A DNA stretch of 60,270 bases from a virus. Taxonomy: Duplodnaviria > Caudoviricetes. The notes below the pieces were generated by a model, which did not search any database, was not told the DNA's origin, and saw nothing but the letters and a program-made list of their open reading frames with translations. Shown in pieces: positions 20,148 through 58,994 of this stretch (positions are counted from its first letter, which is position 1; each line of letters opens with the position of its first letter). The DNA is taken from IMG/VR virus record IMGVR_UViG_3300021494_000019, positions 1-60,270 of that record. The stretch is one strand, 5' to 3'. Both the position numbers and the translations under genes were made by a program.

Positions 20148-21315
20148 ACAAGGATGGCTACAGGCATATGATGAATACATAATCAAGCAAGAATCACCAC
20201 GCACCTTTCATTTTTGGGTAGGATGTCAACTAATCTCAACCGTTTTGAAAAGGCATGTCTATCTCGATCGTGGTGCGTATGAAGTATGGCCAAATTTATA
20301 CATCGTCCTGGTAGCTAAATCCGCAGACCAACGCAAAAGTACGGCTATGGATATCGGCCTTGAACTCCTGGAAGATATTCCAGATATTCATATCGTTCAT
20401 GGCCGAGCTACTATCGAGGGATTGATGGATATGATGAACAAAAACGTAGAGATTGGCCGTCCAGGTACGCCAAATGAAGGAAAGGCAAGACCTGATGGAA
20501 GCGTCTTACTCCATGCAGACGAACTTCAGTTCTTGCTTGGTAGAGCATCATACATCACTGATCTAATGACCTTTCTAACAGCGGCTTATACAGCCAAGGC
20601 TAAGTTAGATTTTCTAACCCGCAAGAACGGGTTATGTAAGGCGAGGAATTTATATCCAGGAATACTAACAGCAACAACACCTGAACAAATGTCGGAAATC
20701 TTTCCTTCTATGGCATTGTTTAGTGGATTCTTAGGCAGGGTTTTATTGATTTATACTGATGAAACTTGGCCCCGATACGCCAAACCCGAACTTAAAAGAG
20801 AAATGGAGGAAAGCCTCATTTGGGATTTAGGTTGCATCAACGAACTCGAAGGCGAGATGGTTATGACCGAAGAGGCAGATAAATATTTTGATGCTTGGTA
20901 TGAAACCACTCTCAAGCCAACTACGCCTGAAATGGCTTCTTTTTATCTTAGGAAACATGACCATGTTCTGAAACTTGCGATGATTTTGTCAATATCGGAA
21001 TCCGACGAACTGGTTTTGAGGTTAGATCATCTTCAAAAGGCTATAGACATTATTCAGATAGTCGAAGATAACATGCCCGCCGCTATAACCTATGTCGGCG
21101 CCACAGCACGAAGTCATCTTACTGATTTAGTTGAACATGTCATCCTTTCAGTAGCTCCAGAAGCCATCGGACACTCAGTTCTCTTGAAAAGAGTCTATCG
21201 AAAACTGCCCAATGGAGCGGCGGACTTAGCTGAGGTTATTAGCGATCTAAAACTCAAAGGCAGAATTGAAGAAATTGCAGATAAGAAAGGAGTAAGATAT
21301 AGGGTGAAAACATGA
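20125..21315 (+). CDS. DUF3987-like P-loop protein (putative replicative helicase)
   Basis: ESP..F, PNLY.VLVA.S...KST, DE, GFLGR. Confidence 0.7.
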   Translation: MARKRKLKQGWLQAYDEYIIKQESPRTFHFWVGCQLISTVLKRHVYLDRGAYEVWPNLYIVLVAKSADQRKSTAMDIGLELLEDIPDIHIVHGRATIEGLMDMMNKNVEIGRPGTPNEGKARPDGSVLLHADELQFLLGRASYITDLMTFLTAAYTAKAKLDFLTRKNGLCKARNLYPGILTATTPEQMSEIFPSMALFSGFLGRVLLIYTDETWPRYAKPELKREMEESLIWDLGCINELEGEMVMTEEADKYFDAWYETTLKPTTPEMASFYLRKHDHVLKLAMILSISESDELVLRLDHLQKAIDIIQIVEDNMPAAITYVGATARSHLTDLVEHVILSVAPEAIGHSVLLKRVYRKLPNGAADLAEVISDLKLKGRIEEIADKKGVRYRVKT

Positions 21316-21482
21316 AAAAGTTAAAAAATCCTCTTGTAAAGATTTTAGATGATTTAAAATTTGGTGAAGAGAGTCTTCTCGATATTGTAATAAAAGAAAT
21401 GCACGATAATCGTAAAATGCCGCTTGAGCTCGTGGCTGAGATACTCGAAATGAGCGTATCTTCCCTCAAAAGACGACTTTAA
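21312..21482 (+). CDS. small HTH protein (56 aa, not in ORF track)
   Basis: ATGA overlap; LELVAEILEMSVSSLKRRL. Confidence 0.7.
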   Translation: MKKLKNPLVKILDDLKFGEESLLDIVIKEMHDNRKMPLELVAEILEMSVSSLKRRL

Positions 21483-21488
21483 TGATAT

Positions 21489-21637
21489 GCACAGAGTGGC
21501 AACTGGTGTTGCGGTGAAACAGTTGGGCACATAGACCAAAAGCGGCATAGTATGTCTATGTGTTTGGGGAAACACCTGAAGCTGTTTTCTCAACTGTACT
21601 GAAGGCTTCCTCGGTTCGATTCCGACTCTGTGCATCA
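21489..21637 (+). tRNA. Atypical tRNA-like RNA (8-bp acceptor / 4-bp T stem; expanded anticodon domain)
   Basis: GCACAGAG/CTCTGTGC; D arm GCAAC-TGGT-GTTGC; T arm TCGG-TTCGATT-CCGA; 3' ATCA; anticodon unresolved. Confidence 0.7.
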
Positions 21638-21649
21638 AAAAGAGCAGAT

Positions 21650-22048
21650 ATGAAAGTTAAAGTTAATTTAAATGATGTCGAATCCGAACAAGAACGTGAT
21701 TTGTTTGAGGGTTTGGAAAAGATACCTAAGTGTCAATGCGGCAAATTAGCCTATATCTATACCACTGAAGGCTGTTTTTGTAACGATTGTTCTCCTAAGC
21801 AGCTACGAAAGGAGGTGAAAAAACCTAAGCGCATCGAACCAACAAGAATAAACGATTCTGACGATTATTCTTTCACCGTCGAAATTAAGCATGAAACTAA
21901 AAAGGCCATCTTGATTAACTATAACGGTCAAGAATATTGGTTACCAAAATCTCAGATAAGCTGGGATGTCGATGCAGTCAAGTCAGGTCAAAAAACTAAG
22001 GTCGTCATACCCTTTTGGCTTGCAGAAAAGAAGGAAATGTTTTCTTAG
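21650..22048 (+). CDS. hypothetical protein with Zn-finger and WLPKSQ domain
   Basis: CQCG...CNDC; ETKKAILI...WLPKSQI...IPFWLA; longer ORF start would overlap the RNA. Confidence 0.75.
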   Translation: MKVKVNLNDVESEQERDLFEGLEKIPKCQCGKLAYIYTTEGCFCNDCSPKQLRKEVKKPKRIEPTRINDSDDYSFTVEIKHETKKAILINYNGQEYWLPKSQISWDVDAVKSGQKTKVVIPFWLAEKKEMFS

Positions 22049-22062
22049 ATAAGGAGAAGATT

Positions 22063-22566
22063 ATGCCTAAAAGTGAATATGGTAGAGGATTTATCTATAA
22101 TCTTTTATTATTCAATGCTCATTTTTATAACGCTAAAACGGAAAGAATAGAAATTTATAATTTTGTTATGCAAATGCCGCCCGAAGAGAAGGAAAAAGTT
22201 TTGAGAGACAATCCTGATATGCAACATAATTATGGCTGGAATAAAGAAGTTAAATTTTGGTTTGATAGAATCGTTCCTCTTTGTAGTAATGATGAAAAAA
22301 GGGCATTAGCAGATGAAATTCGTTCTTGGGCAAATGGGGCCGTTGACCATCTTGAAGAACTTCAAATTCCTGAACAATGGAAAAATCATGAAATAGGTAA
22401 ACTAACACAAAAAATGTTAAAAAAGGCTTATGTTTTAACTCTTTATGATGAAGTCGCAAAACCAACCTTTAAAGATTTTAAAGAATTAAAAAATCTAACA
22501 CACAAAATAGCTTTAGCTATTGACAATGCTTTAGGCGTTGAAACATGTCAAGCGGAATGGACATAA
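22063..22566 (+). CDS. hypothetical protein
   Basis: AGGAG SD before MPKSE. Confidence 0.75.
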   Translation: MPKSEYGRGFIYNLLLFNAHFYNAKTERIEIYNFVMQMPPEEKEKVLRDNPDMQHNYGWNKEVKFWFDRIVPLCSNDEKRALADEIRSWANGAVDHLEELQIPEQWKNHEIGKLTQKMLKKAYVLTLYDEVAKPTFKDFKELKNLTHKIALAIDNALGVETCQAEWT

Positions 22567-22576
22567 GGAGATTGCT

Positions 22577-23254
22577 ATGTTTTTAGAAAAACCCTATTAT
22601 CAAATCTTAGATTTTCCCTATCATGCCATGCAAAGACTTGAACTGATAGGAAGAGTATGTTATAAATCTGAAGACAAAATTAATAGTGGCACTGCTGAGC
22701 ATTTTCTCGAAAATATCATCAAAAAAGGCCATGAAAGTGTCATCGAGCATTGCTACGCCACCGTGAAGTTAATATGTGATCGAGGTGTTTCTCATGAACT
22801 CGTCCGACATCGTTTGGCTTCCTACAGTCAAGAATCGACAAGATACTGCAACTACTCTGGAGGAGTCGCCTTTATAATTCCACCTTGGCTCGATATCGAA
22901 CCTGGAGAGCTTAAAGATAAAGAAGCTATTGCAACTCGTTATCTTTTAAAAGATGAATCTGTTTGACTCTTGGCCATGTTAAAAGCCGAAGAATACTATC
23001 TCCATTTTCTAAAACATGGATGGTCGCCAGAAAAGGCGAGATCAGTACTTCCAAATGCTCTTAAAACCGAAATCGTCATAACGGCAAATCTGAGAGAATG
23101 GCGGCATATTTTCAAACTACGCTGTTCTAAACAAGCACATCCACAAATGCGTGAAATTATGATTCCCTTGAGAAATCAGTTTAATCTTATGTTGCCTATT
23201 ATATTTCCTGTTGAGGAGAAAGGAGAAAGTAATATGTCTGACAAAAAGAATTAA
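22577..23254 (+). CDS. thyX: FAD-dependent thymidylate synthase, interrupted by in-frame TGA at 22964-22966
   Basis: GHESVIEH, RGVSHELVRHR.ASYSQESTRY before the TGA; ARSVLPN..KTEI...N.REWRH..LRC...AHPQMR after it, same frame. Confidence 0.88.
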
Positions 23255-48365: not shown

Positions 48366-50636
48366 TTATTCCAACCTCTTCCGAGTGGTTACGCCTCCAG
48401 AAGATGTAAAGGCACCGGCCACATTTACGAATTCAGTAGTATCATTATCGTCATAAATCACCGTGTTGCCGTTCGATTCGTCAATAGTCATCTTGTTGAC
48501 CGTAACCTTCTTGATTCTCTCGATATAGTCATTAATACTATCCGCCGTCGGCGAACCAGGAATTGCTGTATCTAAGGCATTGTCCACTTCAGCGTTAACG
48601 TCCGCCTTAGCTTGGGTCCCGAGTGCATTGACAGTTCCTATCGTGACATCACTTTGATCAGCCGCCAGGTTGAAATCGGATTTATCCGTCAAAGCCCTTG
48701 TAGCGACAGACCATACATCGGCTGCTGAATGGGTTGAAGTGCCGTCAAGCTGATCACTCAATGTTTCAAGAGTGTCTCCATCAGCACCGGTTCTGGCTAT
48801 CTGAGTCGAACCCGAATCGGCAGACTTGATCGGGAAAGCGGTTGTTTCATCAAACTTAGCCGCAGTGATGGCATCATCTGCCAAGTTCATTTCGCTCCCA
48901 ACCGCCGCAGGACTGGCCGGCAAGTTATCTGTCTTGGCTTTTATTGCATCTACCACGGTATCTACCGTATCAAGTTTACTATCGTGCGTACTCAACTCGG
49001 CACTGGTGGCAAAGCCTGTTGCAGTCACCCAATTTCCTTGATTGATTTGGAGTTCGTTCGTGTCTGCCAAAATTGCATTAATATCTGCTCCGTTATCGTT
49101 GGCCGTCTGGGCAGTACCTGATATATGAGTAACGTTCACATCAGCATAGGCATTAAGGATGTAAAACTCATCCCCTGCCGCCGGAGTAAAGCCAAAGGCA
49201 CGATCAACCGTAATCTCTTTCGAAGAGCCAACATAGTCTATAATGCGGCGTGTTTCGTAATGTCCGTCTGTCTTATCTTCTATGGTAATGATCATGCCGT
49301 TATAGGCATCATTAACAGAAGAACCAGAGTCTATGACAAACTTAGTGGCATCCGTAGCCGAGGCCACGTCACCCTGGACAAGAAACATACGAGATAGATT
49401 ATAACCAAGGGTTCCATCATCATGACTGCCGTTTACGCTTGATCTTGCCCACACGGCTTTCTGGATTGTATCTGCCGTAAGTCCAGCCGCCTCCAAGGCA
49501 ACACTTGCCACATTGACATAATCGCAGTACCAAACATCCGTGCCTGTTTCTGACGTTGACGTGAACCTGATCTTAACCTCACCATCCGTAATCCTAACAT
49601 TATCAATCCCTAAAGCATATTCCTGAGTTGCGTCTGTTCCTGAGTTTCCGAAATCATTCGTGGAATTAGATATCTGGTCATAGCTAGAAGTATTGTAATT
49701 ATATGCCCAGACCTGAACTGTCCGCTGTGCTCCTGCATCGAAATGACCTCTGATTACAACCACGGAAGGTGTGCGGCCTGTGCCGATGTTAAATGTCAAG
49801 TTACAATCGAGACCATATCCACCAACTGCCGCTCCAGGGCTTGTCTCATAGTAATTTGTCCCGTCAGGCGTAAATGTATCAGTATAATCGCCATCAACCA
49901 AGACGGTATTACCTTCTTCGGAATTGGACGTTGCCGAATGGCCGAGGGGACTTGCGTCCACCAGGGCATCCCTTATCGCCTCAAGACTGTCTGTTGTATT
50001 ATCAAAATCGTCCCAATCAGCGGTAGCAGACTTGGATACCAACTTAGCAATGATCGAGTTATCGGTAATATCCGTTCCGGCCACCGAAGCACTGATAAGA
50101 TGGTCAAGTCCAATATCGCTTAGGGCTGTATCAACCTCGGCATTGACATCTAATTTGGCTTGAGTTCCCAAGGCGTTAGCGGTATCGGCCAAGACAACGC
50201 CTTGGACTTTGTGAGTAGACGGATCATAACCCGTATCTGCAAAATCTTTCAGGTCGGTAGCCGATTGAGTGACTCCGCCTATTTGAACAACATCTACTTC
50301 CAACTTATCTGAACCGTACTTAGAATCCCAAACATTAGCCGGAAGGACAGTAAACTCTAATCTAACCGCCAATGCACCCGATACATGGACAAAAATAACT
50401 CCAGGGCCGACAGTATCAGTATCAGTTGCATCCAGAACAACGTAGTAAATGCCGTTAGACATGTGAGTAGCACCACCAGAGTTCTTGCTGACAAGTGATG
50501 TAGCACCCCACTTCCAGATTTTGATATCTGTATTGCTTATAGTGAGTGCCGTTTCCTCGGTATCGCCATCCGATGAATCAAGAAAATATCCGAGCGGAAC
50601 TTCCTGATTGGCTGTTGATTGTCTAAGTTCTATCAT
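48366..50636 (-). CDS. large acidic Thr/Asp-rich virion protein (possible head fibre)
   Basis: Mosaic composition; ALGTQAK.DVNAEVD.AL repeated twice. Confidence 0.7.
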   Translation of the reverse strand: MIELRQSTANQEVPLGYFLDSSDGDTEETALTISNTDIKIWKWGATSLVSKNSGGATHMSNGIYYVVLDATDTDTVGPGVIFVHVSGALAVRLEFTVLPANVWDSKYGSDKLEVDVVQIGGVTQSATDLKDFADTGYDPSTHKVQGVVLADTANALGTQAKLDVNAEVDTALSDIGLDHLISASVAGTDITDNSIIAKLVSKSATADWDDFDNTTDSLEAIRDALVDASPLGHSATSNSEEGNTVLVDGDYTDTFTPDGTNYYETSPGAAVGGYGLDCNLTFNIGTGRTPSVVVIRGHFDAGAQRTVQVWAYNYNTSSYDQISNSTNDFGNSGTDATQEYALGIDNVRITDGEVKIRFTSTSETGTDVWYCDYVNVASVALEAAGLTADTIQKAVWARSSVNGSHDDGTLGYNLSRMFLVQGDVASATDATKFVIDSGSSVNDAYNGMIITIEDKTDGHYETRRIIDYVGSSKEITVDRAFGFTPAAGDEFYILNAYADVNVTHISGTAQTANDNGADINAILADTNELQINQGNWVTATGFATSAELSTHDSKLDTVDTVVDAIKAKTDNLPASPAAVGSEMNLADDAITAAKFDETTAFPIKSADSGSTQIARTGADGDTLETLSDQLDGTSTHSAADVWSVATRALTDKSDFNLAADQSDVTIGTVNALGTQAKADVNAEVDNALDTAIPGSPTADSINDYIERIKKVTVNKMTIDESNGNTVIYDDNDTTEFVNVAGAFTSSGGVTTRKRLE

Positions 50637-52004
50637 TTACATCATCCTTTGTTGTTTATAGTGATGAACAAATACCGGAATACTTGCACCTCCAGCCACA
50701 TACTCCCAAGCACCTATATCCGGCGTACTACGAGAAGTGCCTATAATATCCGTAGAAGTCGAATTCGCTGGATCGCCTGCATCAATCAGAGGCGACCCAG
50801 AAACCAAACTGAAATCACCGTTAGGAGCATCCGTCCAAATATCGCCGTGTGCTTCTCCGCTCAAATCAACATCGTGAGTGCCCGGCTGGGAACCATCTTC
50901 TCCTGCATTGTAATCCCCATCACAAGAGCTATAATCCGCTCCTGTAATAGTGTGTGCTGCACAAGAAGTGCAAGTTAGCGTGTAATAAGCGTCTCCGCCT
51001 GCATTATAAACCACGCAGTTTATAGCACCATCGTGTGATGTATTCATACCTTCAATTCCAATATTATCCACATTTTTGATTACACAATTTTCAATACGAC
51101 CTCCATTGTTCTTCCATGCTCTCATACATATCCCACTTGCAGTTCCAGAACCAGCGTTGGTATGTTCATTGATTATACAATTCTTGATTAAAAGGGTAGA
51201 AGCCACGGTTTGATACAAACGGATAACATACTGGTTATAGATATTATTTCTTGAAACAGTTATCTGGAAACCATCCAGTGCGAAATGCGTCAGATCAGCA
51301 TTCTGATTAAGTTCAATCTGAGCTCCCTTACCTCCGCCATACGACATATAGTAATAATTTGTATCCCACTTGCCTTGATGACGGCCCGCACCGGAAATCC
51401 TGAAAGTCAGTGTGTATCCATTGTCCGCAAATCCGGCAATGTCTATTATGTTGGCATTACTCTCATTAAACGCCTCATCACAATCTCCCGTCAAATCACC
51501 GGTTAAATCGCCACAATTTGACTCAAATTCAAAGAATGTGTTGGCATCTGAATGGCCATTTGGTCCAACATCAACCGTACCACTTGTAAAAGTACCTGCC
51601 CGATCATAGGGGTTAAGAACAGTGCGTAATTCAACCGGTTCAAATAAATCAATAGGATTTTTATTTACCGTAATCGCCGGAACGGCATAGTCATGATTAT
51701 ATAAATCTCTCAATCGCCGATCACCAAACAGCTTACTCAAATCTACATAATACTTAGCTCTTCGCCAAGGTATTAATCTTCGTTCCATTCGATCAATTTC
51801 TTCTGGAGTCCAGGTATAATCTTGCCACCTGAACCTACCTGGGACACGCAGAACGATACCCATGCGTTTCGCACCGGCATGACGATTTTGAGTGAAGAAA
51901 CCATCAGGTTGAATTTGAAGAATGTCTCCTGCCGTCCAATCCCTCAGATATAACCTACTGTTAGGGTCACGATGTCGTGTATATGTTTTAACTAAGACTT
52001 CCAT
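50637..52004 (-). CDS. right-handed beta-helix (pectin lyase-like) virion protein
   Basis: IKNC/IENC/INC repeats; C-term DF.L..GSPLIDAG...DIGAWEY. Confidence 0.72.
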   Translation of the reverse strand: MEVLVKTYTRHRDPNSRLYLRDWTAGDILQIQPDGFFTQNRHAGAKRMGIVLRVPGRFRWQDYTWTPEEIDRMERRLIPWRRAKYYVDLSKLFGDRRLRDLYNHDYAVPAITVNKNPIDLFEPVELRTVLNPYDRAGTFTSGTVDVGPNGHSDANTFFEFESNCGDLTGDLTGDCDEAFNESNANIIDIAGFADNGYTLTFRISGAGRHQGKWDTNYYYMSYGGGKGAQIELNQNADLTHFALDGFQITVSRNNIYNQYVIRLYQTVASTLLIKNCIINEHTNAGSGTASGICMRAWKNNGGRIENCVIKNVDNIGIEGMNTSHDGAINCVVYNAGGDAYYTLTCTSCAAHTITGADYSSCDGDYNAGEDGSQPGTHDVDLSGEAHGDIWTDAPNGDFSLVSGSPLIDAGDPANSTSTDIIGTSRSTPDIGAWEYVAGGASIPVFVHHYKQQRMM

Positions 52005-53922: not shown

Positions 53923-56454
53923 TTATGAATGTAAAACGCTCCAACGAGCGTTATTAGACGGAGTTTTTAGCCTGGGTTTGTCCATATTCCAAATACTGCT
54001 CCTGTTTAGGTTGCTATTAGCGTTGGAAAAATGAATCGAGGGCGTGGTGCCTTTAGCATCTTTGCAATATTCGTCATCGAGAAAAGCGTACATCATTGCA
54101 TCAAGATGGTCAGGAGATTGGCCCATGCCTTGTTTAGACTCAATGAGAATCTTTCCGTTGCGTAAAATATAATGCAAATTCCCAAGTTCAGCAATTAGTT
54201 GTTGAGGAATGTTTTTGCAGTATACGTGAGGCAAGATAGTTCTTAGGTTCCAATATCCAAGAGCACGTAAGTTTGCGATGGTATCTTTATGTTTATCTGG
54301 AACCTTAGCCTGACCTAAGACTGGCTTGACAATCTTAGGAAAAAGACGTTTAAGATTGTCATAAACTCCTGCTCCGATTCCATTAGCGTCAACCTTCACT
54401 GAAGTTGGATTGAAGGATTGAACAAATTCAGTTACCCAGTTGGTAATATCTACCGTATCGCCTATGCTGCCGCTTAGTGGAAATTCTTCAAAACCTAAAA
54501 CTTTATAGCCTTTTCGGATGCATAATATAGTTTTATTAATACTGCGAGCAATATCTAATCCGAATTCGATTGGTATGCGTTTGCCTCGATCATCATAAAG
54601 CTCAGGCCCATTATTGCGAAACTTTTCGATGTCGTCGGGAGTGAATAAGAGCATAGACGAATCCATCTTCGGAAAGTTGCCCATGACTTTTATTTGATAG
54701 ATTGGATGATCCTCGCCATAGGTGGCCAGCATGGTTTTCAAATAACGCTCTTCGACAAAAGGAGAATTTCGGCTATCGACGTGAAAAAGTCTATAAAGAC
54801 CTTTCATCATAGGATTATTAAACACGTCGTAGAAATATCCGGAAATTTTGGTCGGATTGCTTGTCAAAATACAATAAGCCTTCTTTCCTGTTAAGGCTCC
54901 TTCTATGGCGGGGAAGATTGCATCGGGGACACCTGAAGCTTCGTCGACGATGAACATAAGGTTTTCCTCTGAATTACCGGACCACATACAAAAGCCGTTT
55001 CTACGTGTAAAAATTAGATGATAAGGAGCGACATCTACACAATAAACTTTTCCTTTGTATGGAACTTGATACAAATTCTCCCGTCTAATAGTGAGGTAAG
55101 CCTTATTATCTACATATTCAGCTACTCTATAACGAACATGCTTTGTTTGTACTAATCTTCCTCGAATATAACTGGGTTTTTTCTGGTTCTGTTCGGGAGT
55201 ATATTTTCTAACGGACGCCTTTCCTCCAACCTTAAAAATTAGCTCTTGAATATCATCCGCTAATTTTTTGGAAGATGTGTAATAAATCTTTATGCCTTTT
55301 CTATTAATATAACCATCTCCATGCAAATAACCATTCAAAAATCTTCTAATGAGTTCAGGAGAGGCATCTTTAACATACTGAGGTACGAACTTATTTAAAG
55401 ACGATGTTCCGAATTCTTCTAAATGATGCTTAAGTTGTGGAGAGTTGATATCGATACGATCCGCTCCAAAATCTTCGTTAGCATAAGTATGTGCTACAAA
55501 ACCAAGTTGATTCGCAAGATATTCTATTAAAGGAAAAACAGCTTCATCTTTTTGACTAAGACTAATTCCGTAAGGAGTACAATATCCTTCGGCAAGATAA
55601 AAACCTAAGAAGTAAAACCATGAAGGTGCAGATGTAGTAACTTTAGGATATTTTTTCTGTTTACCTTGATAAGCGGGGATATCGAAAGTCGAGAAATCTT
55701 TACCTTTCCAGATGAAAGTATTATTTATGTACCAATGACGGTATGTTATATTCTGAATTTCATCCAACTTCCAATCAGTAAGTTTTCCATGACTTTTATT
55801 TTTGTACAACATCTTATGATTAGGCGTAACACAAAAATCTAAATTTTGATGTTTAGTTGTGTACATCATACCGTCATAATCATATTCCATTATCTTAGAA
55901 GGTCGATAATATGAAGCCTCTCCAGTATCAGGGTTTAAAGAGAGTACTTTGTCATCAGATTGCAATTCGTAAAAATACTTCCATCCTTTGTGGGTTAGTA
56001 TCTCAGTGTCTTGGCTCATGCAGTGAAATCCCTGAAGTCCTTCCGCAACCTGACCCGTTGGTGATACTCTGGCCGTTCGAGCTACGGCATACCAATCAGG
56101 AGCGTACTTAGTTACGGCGACTCTGGTTCCTGTCCAGGTCAATAGCTGAGACAAAAATTCGCTTTCTCGAATATTACGATGGTGGGAAGCCCATAAAATA
56201 TCAAATAGCTGATGTTGACTTGGAGCAGTTGTCGGAATGCGACAGAAGGGCTTCGTGCAGAGAAACCAACATGTAACGTCACTCAACCAGAAAGATTTAC
56301 CGACTCCGGAACCGGCTCGGATGGCGACGAAGTGATCTTCGACCAAGGCCTTAAATGCTTCCGATTGCCATTTGTCGTATTTATGACCTAAGATATCCTC
56401 ACCAAAAGCTTCTGGATTGCTTTCGTAAAACTGCAAGGCTTCTTTCGAGAGCAT
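53923..56454 (-). CDS. terL: terminase large subunit containing an intein
   Basis: GSGVGKS, TAP..HQ, IVDEASG, SNP, G.DIAR, SPD..DA. Confidence 0.92.
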   Translation of the reverse strand: MLSKEALQFYESNPEAFGEDILGHKYDKWQSEAFKALVEDHFVAIRAGSGVGKSFWLSDVTCWFLCTKPFCRIPTTAPSQHQLFDILWASHHRNIRESEFLSQLLTWTGTRVAVTKYAPDWYAVARTARVSPTGQVAEGLQGFHCMSQDTEILTHKGWKYFYELQSDDKVLSLNPDTGEASYYRPSKIMEYDYDGMMYTTKHQNLDFCVTPNHKMLYKNKSHGKLTDWKLDEIQNITYRHWYINNTFIWKGKDFSTFDIPAYQGKQKKYPKVTTSAPSWFYFLGFYLAEGYCTPYGISLSQKDEAVFPLIEYLANQLGFVAHTYANEDFGADRIDINSPQLKHHLEEFGTSSLNKFVPQYVKDASPELIRRFLNGYLHGDGYINRKGIKIYYTSSKKLADDIQELIFKVGGKASVRKYTPEQNQKKPSYIRGRLVQTKHVRYRVAEYVDNKAYLTIRRENLYQVPYKGKVYCVDVAPYHLIFTRRNGFCMWSGNSEENLMFIVDEASGVPDAIFPAIEGALTGKKAYCILTSNPTKISGYFYDVFNNPMMKGLYRLFHVDSRNSPFVEERYLKTMLATYGEDHPIYQIKVMGNFPKMDSSMLLFTPDDIEKFRNNGPELYDDRGKRIPIEFGLDIARSINKTILCIRKGYKVLGFEEFPLSGSIGDTVDITNWVTEFVQSFNPTSVKVDANGIGAGVYDNLKRLFPKIVKPVLGQAKVPDKHKDTIANLRALGYWNLRTILPHVYCKNIPQQLIAELGNLHYILRNGKILIESKQGMGQSPDHLDAMMYAFLDDEYCKDAKGTTPSIHFSNANSNLNRSSIWNMDKPRLKTPSNNARWSVLHS
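54973..56022 (-). mobile_element. Intein with LAGLIDADG homing endonuclease (350 aa)
   Basis: GFH|CMSQDTEILT...VTPNH...FLGFYLAEG...FLNGYLHGDG...VYC...SGN|S. Confidence 0.92.
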
Positions 56455-57105: not shown

Positions 57106-57280
57106 GTTAATTTTTAATTTGCGGGTTAGGTTGATAAGCTATCACTGTTTGATAGGCTATCACCCGATGCTTAGATTGATGGCCGTTCGCCTCCGGATTT
57201 GGCCGTTCGCTAAGCGAGCTTAGCTTGCTAAGCAAGTTAAAATTTGGGTGGCGGTTGGAGATGGTACGCCCCCGCATTTT

Positions 57281-57450
57281 AGTTAAATTGTTGCATTTTA
57301 TATCAAATTAACATATTTTATATTAAATTAATATCTTTTATGTTAAATTAATATATTTTATAGCTAATTAACATATTTTATATATAATTAACAGCTTTTA
57401 TATTAAATTAACAGCTTTTATATTAAATTAATATATTTTATATCAAATTA
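57281..57450. repeat. AT-rich 20-bp tandem repeat (~8 copies)
   Basis: TATTAAATTAAYAKMTTTTA-like units with exact 20-bp period. Confidence 0.9.
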
Positions 57451-57496
57451 ATCAAAATAACCTATATAGATTAACTTGATTAAATTGATTAAAATT

Positions 57497-58562: not shown

Positions 58563-58825
58563 TTGGCCTAAGATGTGTTATAGCAATTAACGTACCAAGA
58601 CAGATAAGTCACTTTGGCAAGAGTATTGCTATATCAATTATCATACCAAGATAGCTTATCTTACTTGGCAAGGTTATTGCAATAGCATAACTTAGGCCAA
58701 CTTATGTTGGCAAGAGTATTGCATAAGCAAATAGTATGCCATAGGACTTGGCATGATGTTTGCATAAGCATAAGATGTGCCATAACCTTTTGGCAAGGTT
58801 ATTGCATATGCATAAGGCGTGCCAG
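58563..58825. repeat. Array of six ~36-bp quasi-palindromes, each two head-to-head sigma54-type elements
   Basis: TTGGCA-N6-TTGC-N4-GCA-N7-TGCCA pattern; 10 of 12 half-sites keep GG-N10-GC. Confidence 0.82.
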
Positions 58826-58829
58826 TTAG

Positions 58830-58977
58830 CTTATTTAACTAATTTATGTTATTTAACTTATTCATACCAGCCGGACAAGATTTAACTTATTTAGCTAATT
58901 TATGTTATTTAACTAATTTAACTTATTTAACCTATTTAACGAATTTAACCTATTTAACTTATTTAACTTATTTAACT
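58830..58977. repeat. AT-rich ~9-bp tandem repeat (TATTTAACY)
   Basis: Direct inspection. Confidence 0.85.
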
Positions 58978-58994
58978 CTCAAACGTAAACCTCC

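What the first reader, a model, noticed from the sequence alone, without database searches (positions are those of the whole stretch)
21489..21637. 8/4 tRNA-like RNA whose anticodon arm is replaced by a ~90-nt branched domain
Seen: an 8-bp acceptor, a 4-bp T stem with TTCGATT loop, a tRNA-Sec-like D arm (5 bp, TGGT loop) and a 3' ATCA. Between D and T arms lies the helix ACAGTTG/CAACTGT carrying two hairpins (CACATAGAC/GTCTATGTG; GGGAAACA/TGTTTTCT with loop CCTGAAGC). Established: 8/4 folds occur in allo-tRNAs and selC* tRNAs. It is too short for tmRNA, lacks G3-U70, and the insert is too small for a group I intron. Inference: a new tRNA-mimic class (anticodon-nuclease decoy, scaffold, or spliced/processed tRNA).
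Basis: partly seen in the sequence, partly recalled or inferred. Interest (0 to 1): 0.8.

Follow-up and report, generated by a model that had tools for sequence, protein, structure and literature searches.

The report
Phage tRNA-like RNA with branched arm
A phage genome from vent-type metagenomes carries one conserved 149-base RNA gene that has the top half of a transfer RNA but a three-way branched arm where the anticodon arm should be, so as written it probably mimics a tRNA and cannot decode.

Summary
Window 21489-21637 (+) has an 8-bp acceptor stem, a 5-bp D stem with a UGGU loop, and a 4-bp T stem with a consensus T loop. Between the D and T arms a 7-bp helix carries two hairpins. A Watson-Crick-only descriptor of acceptor, T arm and D arm found this site alone in the window and 0 hits in 1000 shuffles.

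It sits in a 167-nt gap between two co-oriented genes of a complete 60-kb siphophage. That phage has no other tRNA. ARAGORN and Rfam do not call it.

One 97%-identical metagenome contig differs inside the element at only two positions. Those two form a compensatory A-U to G-C pair in hairpin 1. A third haplotype has 15 differences in 490 nt and none in the element.

Best reading (0.45): a non-decoding tRNA mimic derived from an 8/4 allo- or Sec-type tRNA, cut out of the operon transcript like a tRNA. Main rival (0.25): an 8/4 tRNA gene with an 'enigmatic' small intron, as reported for Lak megaphages.

I found no expression data, and no homologue beyond near-identical variants. I rate it a new variant of a known kind.

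The parts
21489..21496 (+). acceptor stem, 5' strand (8 nt); base -1 (21488) is T
   Evidence: Pairs with 21626-21633 by 8 of 8 Watson-Crick pairs, with pair probability 0.99-1.0.
21499..21512 (+). D arm: 5-bp stem with tetraloop UGGU, after a UG linker (21497-21498)
   Evidence: probability 0.77-0.79. The loop carries the GG expected to meet the T loop; that role of GG is recalled, not tested.
21513..21518 (+). 6-nt single strand (GGUGAA) between the D stem and helix P
   Evidence: Unpaired in the MFE and the centroid. A decoding tRNA has about one base here.
21519..21525 (+). helix P, 5' strand
   Evidence: Seven Watson-Crick pairs with 21591-21597; probability 0.29-0.68.
21528..21562 (+). 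hairpin H1: 9-bp stem with a 17-nt loop (21537-21553)
   Evidence: Probability 0.85-1.0. The pair 21535/21555 is A-U in the window and G-C in L003, a compensatory change. One low-depth contig lacks one A of the loop at 21538.
21567..21590 (+). hairpin H2: 8-bp stem (two G-U pairs) with 8-nt loop CCUGAAGC; abuts helix P with no spacer
   Evidence: Probability 0.80-0.85. Its 5' strand is a 7-of-8 copy of 21514-21521 (sequence).
21591..21597 (+). helix P, 3' strand
21598..21610 (+). 13-nt single strand (ACUGAAGGCUUCC) before the T arm; contains a second CUGAAG; its GCUUC is complementary to GAAGC of the H2 loop
   Evidence: Read from the sequence. No stable hairpin of its own is predicted. The loop pairing is an inference and was not tested.
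21611..21625 (+). T arm: 4-bp stem with loop UUCGAUU
   Evidence: which place the only GGTTCRANTCC of the window at 21613-21623. The thermodynamic probability is low, 0.01-0.09.
21626..21634 (+). acceptor stem 3' strand (21626-21633) and discriminator A (21634); CCA is not encoded (UCA follows)
21312..21482 (+). upstream 56-aa ORF, HTH-like by eye; its last ~36 codons are invariant together with the element
   Evidence: It has no Pfam or PHROG hit. The stop codon is 6 nt before the element.
21650..22048 (+). downstream 132-aa ORF (phrog_8389; Cys-rich); its start codon is 15 nt after the discriminator
   Evidence: with homologues in Yuavirus phages next to the DNA polymerase.

Best explanation
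The element is a real, selected RNA gene that descends from an 8/4 (allo- or Sec-type) tRNA. It keeps the acceptor-T-D 'top half'. Its anticodon arm is replaced by a compact three-way junction made of helix P, H1 and H2.

Shown:
- the fold;
- its non-random nature;
- one compensatory substitution;
- invariance across haplotypes whose flanks differ;
- the absence of a promoter-like or terminator-like site of its own.

Inferred:
- It is transcribed with the replication-gene operon.
- It is released by RNase P at 21488/21489 and by 3' trimming after A21634, then receives CCA.
- It persists as a stable RNA of about 149 nt.

As written it cannot decode. P is separated from the D stem by 6 nt and from the T stem by 13 nt. 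P plus H2 form about 15 stacked pairs, roughly twice the length of a normal anticodon arm.

My committed mechanism is a tRNA mimic. The top half engages factors that recognise the tRNA elbow and acceptor end, and the branched arm supplies specificity. That arm has two anticodon-loop-like CUGAAG motifs. Cutting it out also splits the polycistronic mRNA between the 56-aa and 132-aa genes. The target factor is unknown. A decoy or sponge for a host tRNA-directed defence enzyme is the most attractive guess, and it is untested.
For: Structure and non-randomness:
- Fold.
- All 41 pairs are standard pairs in both sequences.
- Descriptor controls: 0 of 300 and 0 of 1000 shuffles when the D arm is required.
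- My model R1, built from the element, gives its best foreign scores to real tRNAs through the acceptor, D and T parts: 23.6 bits on an 8/4-like tRNA of Vibrio phage D333 and 20.9 bits on T4 tRNA-Thr. The core is therefore tRNA-like in sequence as well as in shape.

Selection:
- L003 has 57 differences over 1804 nt. Only two lie inside the element, and they turn A-U into G-C at one H1 pair.
- The X4 contig covers 21411-21900 with 15 differences: 1 upstream of the element, 0 in its 149 nt, and 14 in the 263 nt after it.

Not a decoder:
- ARAGORN finds 0 genes in the window, and Rfam gathering thresholds give 0 matches.
- tRNA-Sec reaches only 13.6 bits against a threshold of 47, and that alignment is misplaced.
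- The alternative 'anticodon stem' 28-33/95-100 costs 13.8 kcal/mol more than the three-way junction, -33.5 against -47.3 kcal/mol.
- None of 4200 single-deletion variants passes ARAGORN at 106% of its threshold.

Co-transcription:
- There is no promoter-like site on the + strand before 22201 and no terminator-like site in 20900-22300.
- The gaps to the flanking genes are 6 nt and 15 nt.

Precedent:
- T4 RNAC has a T arm and two hairpins, is stable, and has no known function (PMC3014915 and PMC9697503, passages read).
Against: - No RNA data of any kind, so expression, ends, CCA addition and stability are all inferred.
- Only near-identical variants exist, so just 1 of 41 pairs shows covariation. 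The shuffle control is uninformative with two sequences (257 of 500 shuffles reach the observed value).
- The invariant block also covers the last ~110 nt of the upstream ORF, and divergence along the locus is mosaic: 3 differences in the first 800 nt against ~40 in the next 525. Recent recombination could therefore explain part of the invariance.
- The T stem is barely predicted by the energy model.
- An intron reading is not excluded. A 7-of-8 direct repeat flanks part of the insert. 31 of 4200 deletion variants pass ARAGORN's default threshold. A jumbo-phage tRNA-Tyr carries a 69-nt, two-hairpin insertion in its anticodon loop and still scores 56.5 bits as a tRNA.
- No partner protein was identified in the phage. 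None of the 40 ORFs scanned with Pfam has a tRNA-related domain.
Confidence: 0.45

Rival explanations
1. It is an 8/4 tRNA gene interrupted by a small 'enigmatic' intron of about 52-64 nt in the anticodon region. The three-way junction is then the precursor fold, and removal of the insert yields a decoding tRNA. Candidates seen in the deletion scan are Ser(UGA/GGA) on stem 30-34/94-98 and Phe(GAA) on stem 28-33/95-100.
For: - Lak megaphages carry tRNAs with highly conserved introns of unknown splicing mechanism, including a tRNA-Phe(GAA). The authors suggest such introns may be common in large phages (bioRxiv 10.1101/356790, passages read).
- L027:1604-1743, from a 171-kb phage contig, is a tRNA scoring 56.5 bits with a 69-nt, two-hairpin insertion in the anticodon loop.
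- A 7-of-8 direct repeat (21514-21521 and 21567-21574) brackets part of the insert.
- 31 of 4200 deletion variants pass ARAGORN's default threshold, and 10 pass at 103%.
- (8/4) tRNA-Ser and tRNA-His occur in phages (PMC5389517).
Against: - No deletion variant passes at 106%.
- In every reading the anticodon stem starts 4-6 nt after the D stem instead of about 1.
- The 20-24-nt 'variable region' left behind has no stem.
- The perfect 7-bp helix P would be unexplained in the mature tRNA.
- The alternative stem is 13.8 kcal/mol worse than the three-way junction.
- No group I intron or ribozyme model matches, even at E <= 10.
- No contig lacking the insert, and no joint, was seen in the 4 runs laid. 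Only one of those runs spans the whole element.
- No splicing enzyme was found among the ORFs scanned.
Confidence: 0.25
2. It is only a cis-acting processing or stability signal. The tRNA-like shape recruits RNase P and 3' processing enzymes to cut the operon mRNA between the 56-aa and 132-aa genes ('tRNA punctuation'). The released RNA itself has no function.
For: - It is tightly packed between two co-oriented genes and has no promoter-like or terminator-like site of its own.
- Base -1 is U and the acceptor stem is perfect.
- tRNA-like processing signals are known elsewhere (recalled: mitochondrial punctuation, mascRNA).
Against: A processing signal needs only the acceptor and T parts. The invariant three-way junction and the compensatory change in H1 indicate selection on the arm as well.
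Confidence: 0.12
3. It is a decaying tRNA pseudogene, disrupted by an insertion, that has no function and has not yet been lost.
For: - It is the only tRNA-like gene in the phage.
- It is found in just one lineage: 0 hits in viral contigs, genome contigs and the phage collection.
- A direct repeat flanks part of the insert.
Against: - All 41 pairs are intact.
- The only two substitutions are compensatory.
- Haplotypes whose flanks differ by 5-7% show no difference in the element.
- The perfect helix P ties the insert to the 3' part of the element.
Confidence: 0.08
4. It is a miniature tmRNA-like RNA. A frame from 21527 reads A-H-R-P-K-A-A-stop, and its stop codon lies in the H1 loop.
For: - The short frame ends in Ala-Ala-stop, and the stop lies in a hairpin loop (sequence).
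- The A-to-G change at 21535 in L003 is synonymous in that frame.
Against: - There is no G3-U70; position 3 is an A-U pair.
- ARAGORN's tmRNA search finds nothing, even at a 70% threshold, and Rfam gives no tmRNA match.
- There is no pseudoknot.
- The D arm is a full hairpin, unlike a tmRNA.
- One contig, at depth 2, lacks one A of the loop at 21538, which would break the frame.
- The frame was found post hoc.
Confidence: 0.03

Closest known systems
(8/4) allo-tRNAs and other 8/4 tRNAs of bacteria and phages (Mukai et al. 2017, PMC5389517)
   Same: It has an 8-bp acceptor plus a 4-bp T stem (a 12-bp branch), a long D stem with a tetraloop like tRNA-Sec, and a helix longer than a normal anticodon stem in the anticodon position. 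It occurs in a phage. An unannotated 8/4-like tRNA-Ser(GCU) in Vibrio phage D333 matches the T arm and acceptor 3' strand at 22 of 23 bases and is the best foreign hit of model R1.
   Different: It has no 7-nt anticodon loop and no anticodon. The arm ends in a three-way junction. It has no long variable arm, the discriminator is A rather than G or U, and 6-nt and 13-nt single strands flank the arm.
T4 RNAC (species 1 RNA, rnaC), a 139-nt stable RNA in the T4 tRNA cluster
   Same: It is a phage-encoded RNA of about 140 nt with a consensus T arm, paired ends and two extra hairpins. Its function is still unknown (PMC3014915 and PMC9697503, passages read).
   Different: T4 RNAC has no D arm and an imperfect terminal stem, and it lies in a tRNA cluster. 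There is no detectable similarity: model R1 gives no match to rnaC at E <= 10.
'Enigmatic' introns in tRNA genes of Lak and other large phages (Devoto et al., bioRxiv 10.1101/356790)
   Same: These are tens of nucleotides inserted in the anticodon region of a phage tRNA gene and are highly conserved among variants. The example L027:1604-1743 has a two-hairpin, 69-nt insert.
   Different: In those cases the exons make a canonical tRNA (56.5 bits). Here no excision restores one. This phage is 60 kb, not a megaphage. Table S6 of that paper, which holds the intron sequences, could not be read because supplements are closed.
tmRNA
   Same: It has a tRNA-like acceptor and T domain with the anticodon arm replaced by another domain.
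   Different: The element is 149 nt, with no G3-U70, no pseudoknots and a full D hairpin. Neither ARAGORN nor Rfam calls it.
Bacterial and phage Y RNAs (YrlA) with a tRNA-like module
   Same: It is a non-decoding RNA that mimics the tRNA elbow.
   Different: As I recall it, the YrlA topology is the reverse, with ends in the Ro-binding stem and a closed acceptor. There is no Rfam match, and no TROVE/Rsr protein among the 40 ORFs scanned with Pfam.

Membership tests
canonical tRNA (Rfam RF00005 / ARAGORN) | Recognised by the covariance model or by ARAGORN at default settings | tested here: not met
   ARAGORN finds 0 genes in 60270 nt. Rfam gathering thresholds give 0 matches. RF00005 does not match even at E <= 10 in 21400-21720.
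canonical tRNA (Rfam RF00005 / ARAGORN) | Acceptor stem, T arm with a consensus loop, and D arm with GG, in the right order | tested here: met
   Model R1 cross-hits real tRNAs.
canonical tRNA (Rfam RF00005 / ARAGORN) | A 5-6-bp anticodon stem next to the D stem, with a 7-nt loop | tested here: not met
   Helix P starts 6 nt after the D stem and ends in a three-way junction.
(8/4) allo-tRNA (Mukai et al. 2017) | 12-bp acceptor branch split 8/4 | tested here: met
   Eight plus four Watson-Crick pairs.
(8/4) allo-tRNA (Mukai et al. 2017) | Long D stem with a tetraloop, as in tRNA-Sec | tested here: met
   5-bp stem with loop UGGU.
(8/4) allo-tRNA (Mukai et al. 2017) | Long variable arm and discriminator G73 or U73 | tested here: not met
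   The 13-nt strand 21598-21610 forms no stable stem. The discriminator is A.
(8/4) allo-tRNA (Mukai et al. 2017) | Anticodon loop that decodes | tested here: not met
   No such loop exists in the favoured fold.
tRNA-Sec (Rfam RF01852) | Score at or above the gathering score of 47 bits | tested here: not met
   It scores 13.6 bits (E = 6.1) on a misplaced alignment. A real 8/4-like phage tRNA scores 29.2 bits.
tmRNA | G3-U70, a tag reading frame, pseudoknots, and detection by ARAGORN or Rfam | tested here: not met
   Position 3 is an A-U pair. ARAGORN -m at ps70 finds nothing, and Rfam finds nothing. The short frame ending in Ala-Ala-stop is inconclusive on its own.
tRNA with a group I intron | Group I intron core in the anticodon loop | tested here: not met
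   No intron or ribozyme family matches at E <= 10. The insert is about 65-79 nt.
phage tRNA with an 'enigmatic' small intron (Lak type) | Canonical tRNA restored by removing one contiguous insert | tested here: inconclusive
   31 of 4200 deletion variants pass ARAGORN's default threshold, 10 pass at 103% and 0 at 106%. ARAGORN also misses genuine 8/4 tRNAs, so the test is weak.
Y RNA / YrlA | Rfam match and a nearby Rsr (TROVE) gene | tested here: not met
   There is no Rfam match. None of the 40 ORFs scanned with Pfam has a TROVE domain. Not every ORF was scanned.

The most novel reading that the evidence does not exclude
The 8/4 tRNA top half with a three-way-junction arm is the founding member of a class of phage tRNA mimics. 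Such an RNA would be matured by RNase P and the CCA-adding enzyme and would act as a decoy or adaptor for a host tRNA-directed factor. Alternatively, and equally new, its insert is a small intron removed in a bacterium by a mechanism that is neither group I self-splicing nor the archaeal/eukaryal endonuclease. That would explain the 'enigmatic' introns of large-phage tRNAs.
Probability: 0.3. Interest if true: 0.8.

Novelty: new variant of a known kind. Interest (0 to 1): 0.55.

Why it matters
Phages carry tRNA-shaped RNAs whose roles are still open. T4 RNAC has had no known function for fifty years, and Lak-phage tRNA introns have no known splicing route.

This element is a compact, well-defined case. 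The phage is a complete 60-kb genome with no other tRNA. The tRNA top half is perfect, and the arm clearly cannot decode as it is written. A compensatory substitution shows selection on structure.

It gives a tractable construct of about 150 nt. With it one can ask whether such RNAs are processed like tRNAs, whether they are spliced, and what they bind. It also shows that ARAGORN and Rfam miss this kind of gene.

Tried and rejected
Homologue searches:
- blastn against the 50,697 phage records: no match with a 551-nt query. With the 149-nt query there were only chance-level hits (E = 2-5) to the T arm.
- Exact or degenerate patterns in viral contigs: 0 hits. A looser pattern returned 25 loci. 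All were tRNA clusters or other irregular tRNA-like genes, and the best R1 score among them was 25.7 bits.
- Genome contigs: 0 hits.
- Metagenome contigs: 1 locus, L003.
- Neighbour-protein route: the primase found one relative, L002 at 52% identity, with no element downstream and none in its 13.8-kb record. The DNA polymerase and the 132-aa ORF found no relatives in viral contigs. Yuavirus homologues of the 132-aa ORF have no intergenic RNA beside them.

Sequencing runs:
- No RNA holder was listed among the 19 runs, so nothing can be said about expression.
- Of the 4 runs laid, X8 and most of X13 do not cover the element. Parts without cover are not evidence.

Readings considered and rejected:
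- Hammerhead or another small ribozyme was considered because of the CUGAAG and GAAAC motifs. Rfam shows no match at E <= 10.
- A pseudoknot between the H2 loop (GAAGC) and GCUUC at 21605-21609 is complementary over 5 bp, but it is geometrically doubtful if H2 stacks on P. I did not test it.
- An opal-suppressor role was considered because thyX has an in-frame TGA. No fold presents a UCA anticodon, and the only internal UCA lies buried at the P/H2 junction.
- An archaeal bulge-helix-bulge intron: no such motif is visible by eye, and the amidase endolysin points to a bacterial host.

Tools and files not available:
- Paper PMC150520 is not held.
- Supplements are closed. Table S6 of Devoto et al. 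and the supplementary figures of Mukai et al. might hold comparable sequences.

Full report
CONTEXT. The window is a complete (CheckV 100%) 60,270-nt IMG/VR virus record.
- The + strand of 1-26 kb holds a replication and nucleotide-metabolism module: ATP-dependent ligase, ribonucleotide reductase, exonuclease, Sak4-like annealing protein, ParB-methyltransferase, UDG-PolA fusion, DUF1937 protein, DUF3987 primase, ThyX and a phosphoribosyltransferase.
- The - strand holds siphovirus structural and lysis genes: amidase endolysin, a 2516-aa J-like tail fibre, tape measure, major head protein, portal and large terminase.
- The finding lies in the 167-nt gap between a 56-aa ORF (21312-21482) and a 132-aa ORF (21650-22048). 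Both are on the + strand.
- No + strand promoter-like site occurs before 22201, and no terminator-like site occurs in 20900-22300.

- All 41 pairs are standard pairs.
- The MFE fold (-53.5 kcal/mol, z = -2.79) recovers the acceptor, D arm, helix P, H1 and H2.
- The cloverleaf-plus-junction structure evaluates to -47.3 kcal/mol. Pair probabilities are high everywhere except the 4-bp T stem, which reaches 0.01-0.09.
- The element folds the same way inside a 291-nt context.
- A permissive descriptor (G-U allowed, no D arm) is not rare in shuffled windows, with 89 hits in 300. Requiring the D arm gives 0 in 300. With Watson-Crick pairs only, the numbers are 4 in 1000 and 0 in 1000, while the real window has one hit, at 21489-21633.
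- The + strand is the better folder. H2 has two G-U pairs that would be mismatches on the other strand.

WHAT STANDARD TOOLS SAY.
- ARAGORN finds no tRNA or tmRNA anywhere in the window.
- Rfam finds nothing at gathering thresholds.
- At E <= 10 the only related Rfam match is tRNA-Sec at 13.6 bits against a threshold of 47, and that alignment puts the acceptor in the wrong place.
- With introns allowed and the threshold lowered to 80%, ARAGORN proposes a tRNA-Leu(CAA) with a 71-nt intron, but its anticodon stem is poor.
- Model R1, built from the element, scores 193 bits on itself and finds no second copy in the window. Its best foreign hits are real tRNAs, aligned through the acceptor, D and T parts with the junction deleted: 23.6 bits on an unannotated 8/4-like tRNA-Ser(GCU) of Vibrio phage D333 and 20.9 bits on T4 tRNA-Thr.
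- That D333 RNA is itself missed by ARAGORN and scores 29.2 bits on the tRNA-Sec model. 8/4 tRNAs are therefore generally under-called.

RELATIVES AND SELECTION. The element is rare.
- The phage collection, IMG/VR and the GTDB species genomes gave no match.
- A D-arm plus T-loop pattern found one metagenome contig, L003, of 1804 nt.
- Over the shared 1804 nt there are 57 differences, distributed in a mosaic: 3 in the first 800 nt, about 40 in 20849-21374, and 12 in 21662-21823. Between 21375 and 21661 there are only two.
- Those two, 21535 A>G and 21555 T>C, are the two partners of one H1 base pair, changing A-U to G-C.
- If two substitutions fell at random in that 288-nt block, I estimate the chance of such an outcome at about 5 in 10,000. 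This is my own estimate, not a tool result.
- Public runs that hold the locus are DNA contigs. The two that hold half or more of the sampled words are labelled hydrothermal vent metagenome.
- Four runs were laid. X4 has one 571-nt contig covering 21411-21900 with 15 differences, 0 of them in the element's 149 nt and 14 in the 263 nt after it.
- X11 covers 21409-21560 with one base missing from the A-run of the H1 loop (depth 2, possibly an error), and covers 21593-21772 with no difference inside the element.
- No joint that skips the insert was seen.
- Caveat: the invariant block also includes the last ~110 nt of the 56-aa ORF, and the locus is mosaic. Invariance alone could therefore reflect a recently shared recombination block. 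The compensatory pair is the stronger argument.

CAN IT BE A DECODING tRNA? Not as written.
- Helix P begins 6 nt after the D stem and ends 13 nt before the T stem.
- H2 abuts P without a spacer, so the two can stack into about 15 pairs, and H1 branches off.
- I removed every contiguous segment within element positions 25-122 (4200 variants) and ran ARAGORN. 31 pass at default, 10 at 103% and none at 106%.
- The survivors reuse P, or a 7-of-8 duplicate of the H2 5' strand (21514-21521), as the anticodon stem. They give inconsistent identities: Arg, Ser, Phe, Pro, Glu, Asn, Asp, Ala and 'SeC'.
- The most tRNA-like of them (Ser UGA/GGA on stem 30-34/94-98, Phe GAA on stem 28-33/95-100) leave a 20-24-nt variable region with no stem and a 3-4-nt D-to-anticodon linker.
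- The corresponding stem is 13.8 kcal/mol less stable than the junction.
- The perfect helix P would have no role in such a mature tRNA.

WHY THE INTRON READING STAYS ALIVE.
- Devoto et al. describe tRNAs with 'enigmatic', highly conserved introns in Lak megaphages, including a tRNA-Phe(GAA), and suggest they are common in large phages (passages read).
- Among the 25 loci from my last pattern scan, L027:1604-1743 is a tRNA scoring 56.5 bits, apparently Tyr(GUA), with a 69-nt, two-hairpin insert in the anticodon loop.
- Small structured inserts in phage tRNA genes are therefore real, and their fate is unknown.
- The difference here is that the 'exons' do not make a canonical tRNA.

MECHANISM I COMMIT TO (0.45). 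The element is a non-decoding tRNA mimic derived from an 8/4 tRNA.
- It is co-transcribed with the replication genes.
- It is excised by RNase P (base -1 is U, and the acceptor stem is perfect) and by 3' trimming after the discriminator A.
- It is then CCA-tailed.
- The released RNA presents an intact elbow and acceptor end plus a branched arm with two CUGAAG motifs.
- These steps are inferred from the anatomy and from general tRNA biology, which I recall rather than tested. None is shown.
- The target is unknown.
- No tRNA-related or Ro-like protein was found among the 40 ORFs scanned with Pfam and the 40 queries sent to PHROGs, two of them repeats.

COMPARISON WITH KNOWN KINDS. The top half meets the defining features of 8/4 allo-tRNAs, but the arm, the variable region and the discriminator do not. 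It is therefore not a member.

It works most like other non-decoding tRNA look-alikes. T4 RNAC is the nearest phage case, with a T arm and two hairpins and no known function. It shares no detectable similarity with the element. tmRNA, tRNA-Sec, Y RNA and group I intron membership each fail a tested defining feature (see the membership table).

VERDICT. This is a real, structured, selected tRNA-like RNA gene of a kind that current annotators miss. It is a new variant of a known kind, and the choice between mimic and small intron is unresolved. Interest is 0.55.

Noticed in passing
window 22577-23254 (TGA at 22964-22966): thyX is one continuous frame interrupted by a single in-frame TGA, in the context GTT TGA CTC. 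Both halves hit Pfam Thy1 (model positions 9-110 and 116-190). TGA is otherwise a normal stop in this phage, ending 16 of 66 long frames. It could be leaky readthrough, recoding, a recent mutation or an assembly error.
   Followed up: partly
window 3250, 11654, 15778, 27641, 40306, 47465, 52673, 59499: A recurrent hairpin motif (about GTAATTTCG, 4-6 nt, CGAAATTAC) lies between genes on both halves of the genome. It is probably a phage-specific regulatory, terminator or processing hairpin. None lies next to the tRNA-like element.
   Followed up: no
window 57275-57491, 58614-58826, 58815-58987: There are three arrays of short direct repeats, with periods of 20 bp, about 42 bp and 9 bp, in an AT-rich non-coding stretch. 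They look like iterons of a replication origin or a packaging region.
   Followed up: no
window 53923-56454 (-): The 843-aa large terminase has its terminase match only in residues 498-798. The N-terminal ~450 residues hit phrog_5902, an endonuclease family and phrog_85. This may be an inserted or fused mobile domain such as an intein or a homing endonuclease.
   Followed up: no
window 48366-52004 (-): ORFs of 455 aa and 756 aa lie in the same frame, separated by a single TAA at 50637-50639. Neither has a PHROG hit. The first has a weak beta-helix match.
   Followed up: no
window 21333-21374 and 21375-21488: The 56-aa ORF has a hypervariable N-terminal part, with 15 differences in 42 nt against L003. 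Its last ~36 codons have no difference at all, even at synonymous sites. Its stop codon is TAA in the window and TGA (21481 A>G) in runs X4 and X13.
   Followed up: partly
L005:339-426 (Vibrio phage D333, OZ195998.1 69558-69645): This is an unannotated class II tRNA-like gene with a 7-8-bp acceptor and a 4-bp T stem. Its anticodon loop reads GCU (Ser). ARAGORN misses it, and it scores 29.2 bits on the tRNA-Sec model. The same locus recurs in about 286 Vibrio phage records.
   Followed up: partly
L027:1604-1743 (IMG/VR contig of 171 kb): This is a tRNA (Rfam 56.5 bits; anticodon region reads GUA) with a 69-nt insertion in the anticodon loop that folds into two hairpins. ARAGORN does not call it.
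   Followed up: partly
L031:1146-1258, L028:13372-13478, L030:4722-4868(-), L029:6752-6886: These are further phage RNAs of 107-147 nt with long terminal stems and consensus T arms, called by neither ARAGORN nor Rfam. L031 and L028 are related: their 8-9-bp terminal stems differ by compensating changes while their middles differ. L029 has two T-arm-like hairpins.
   Followed up: partly
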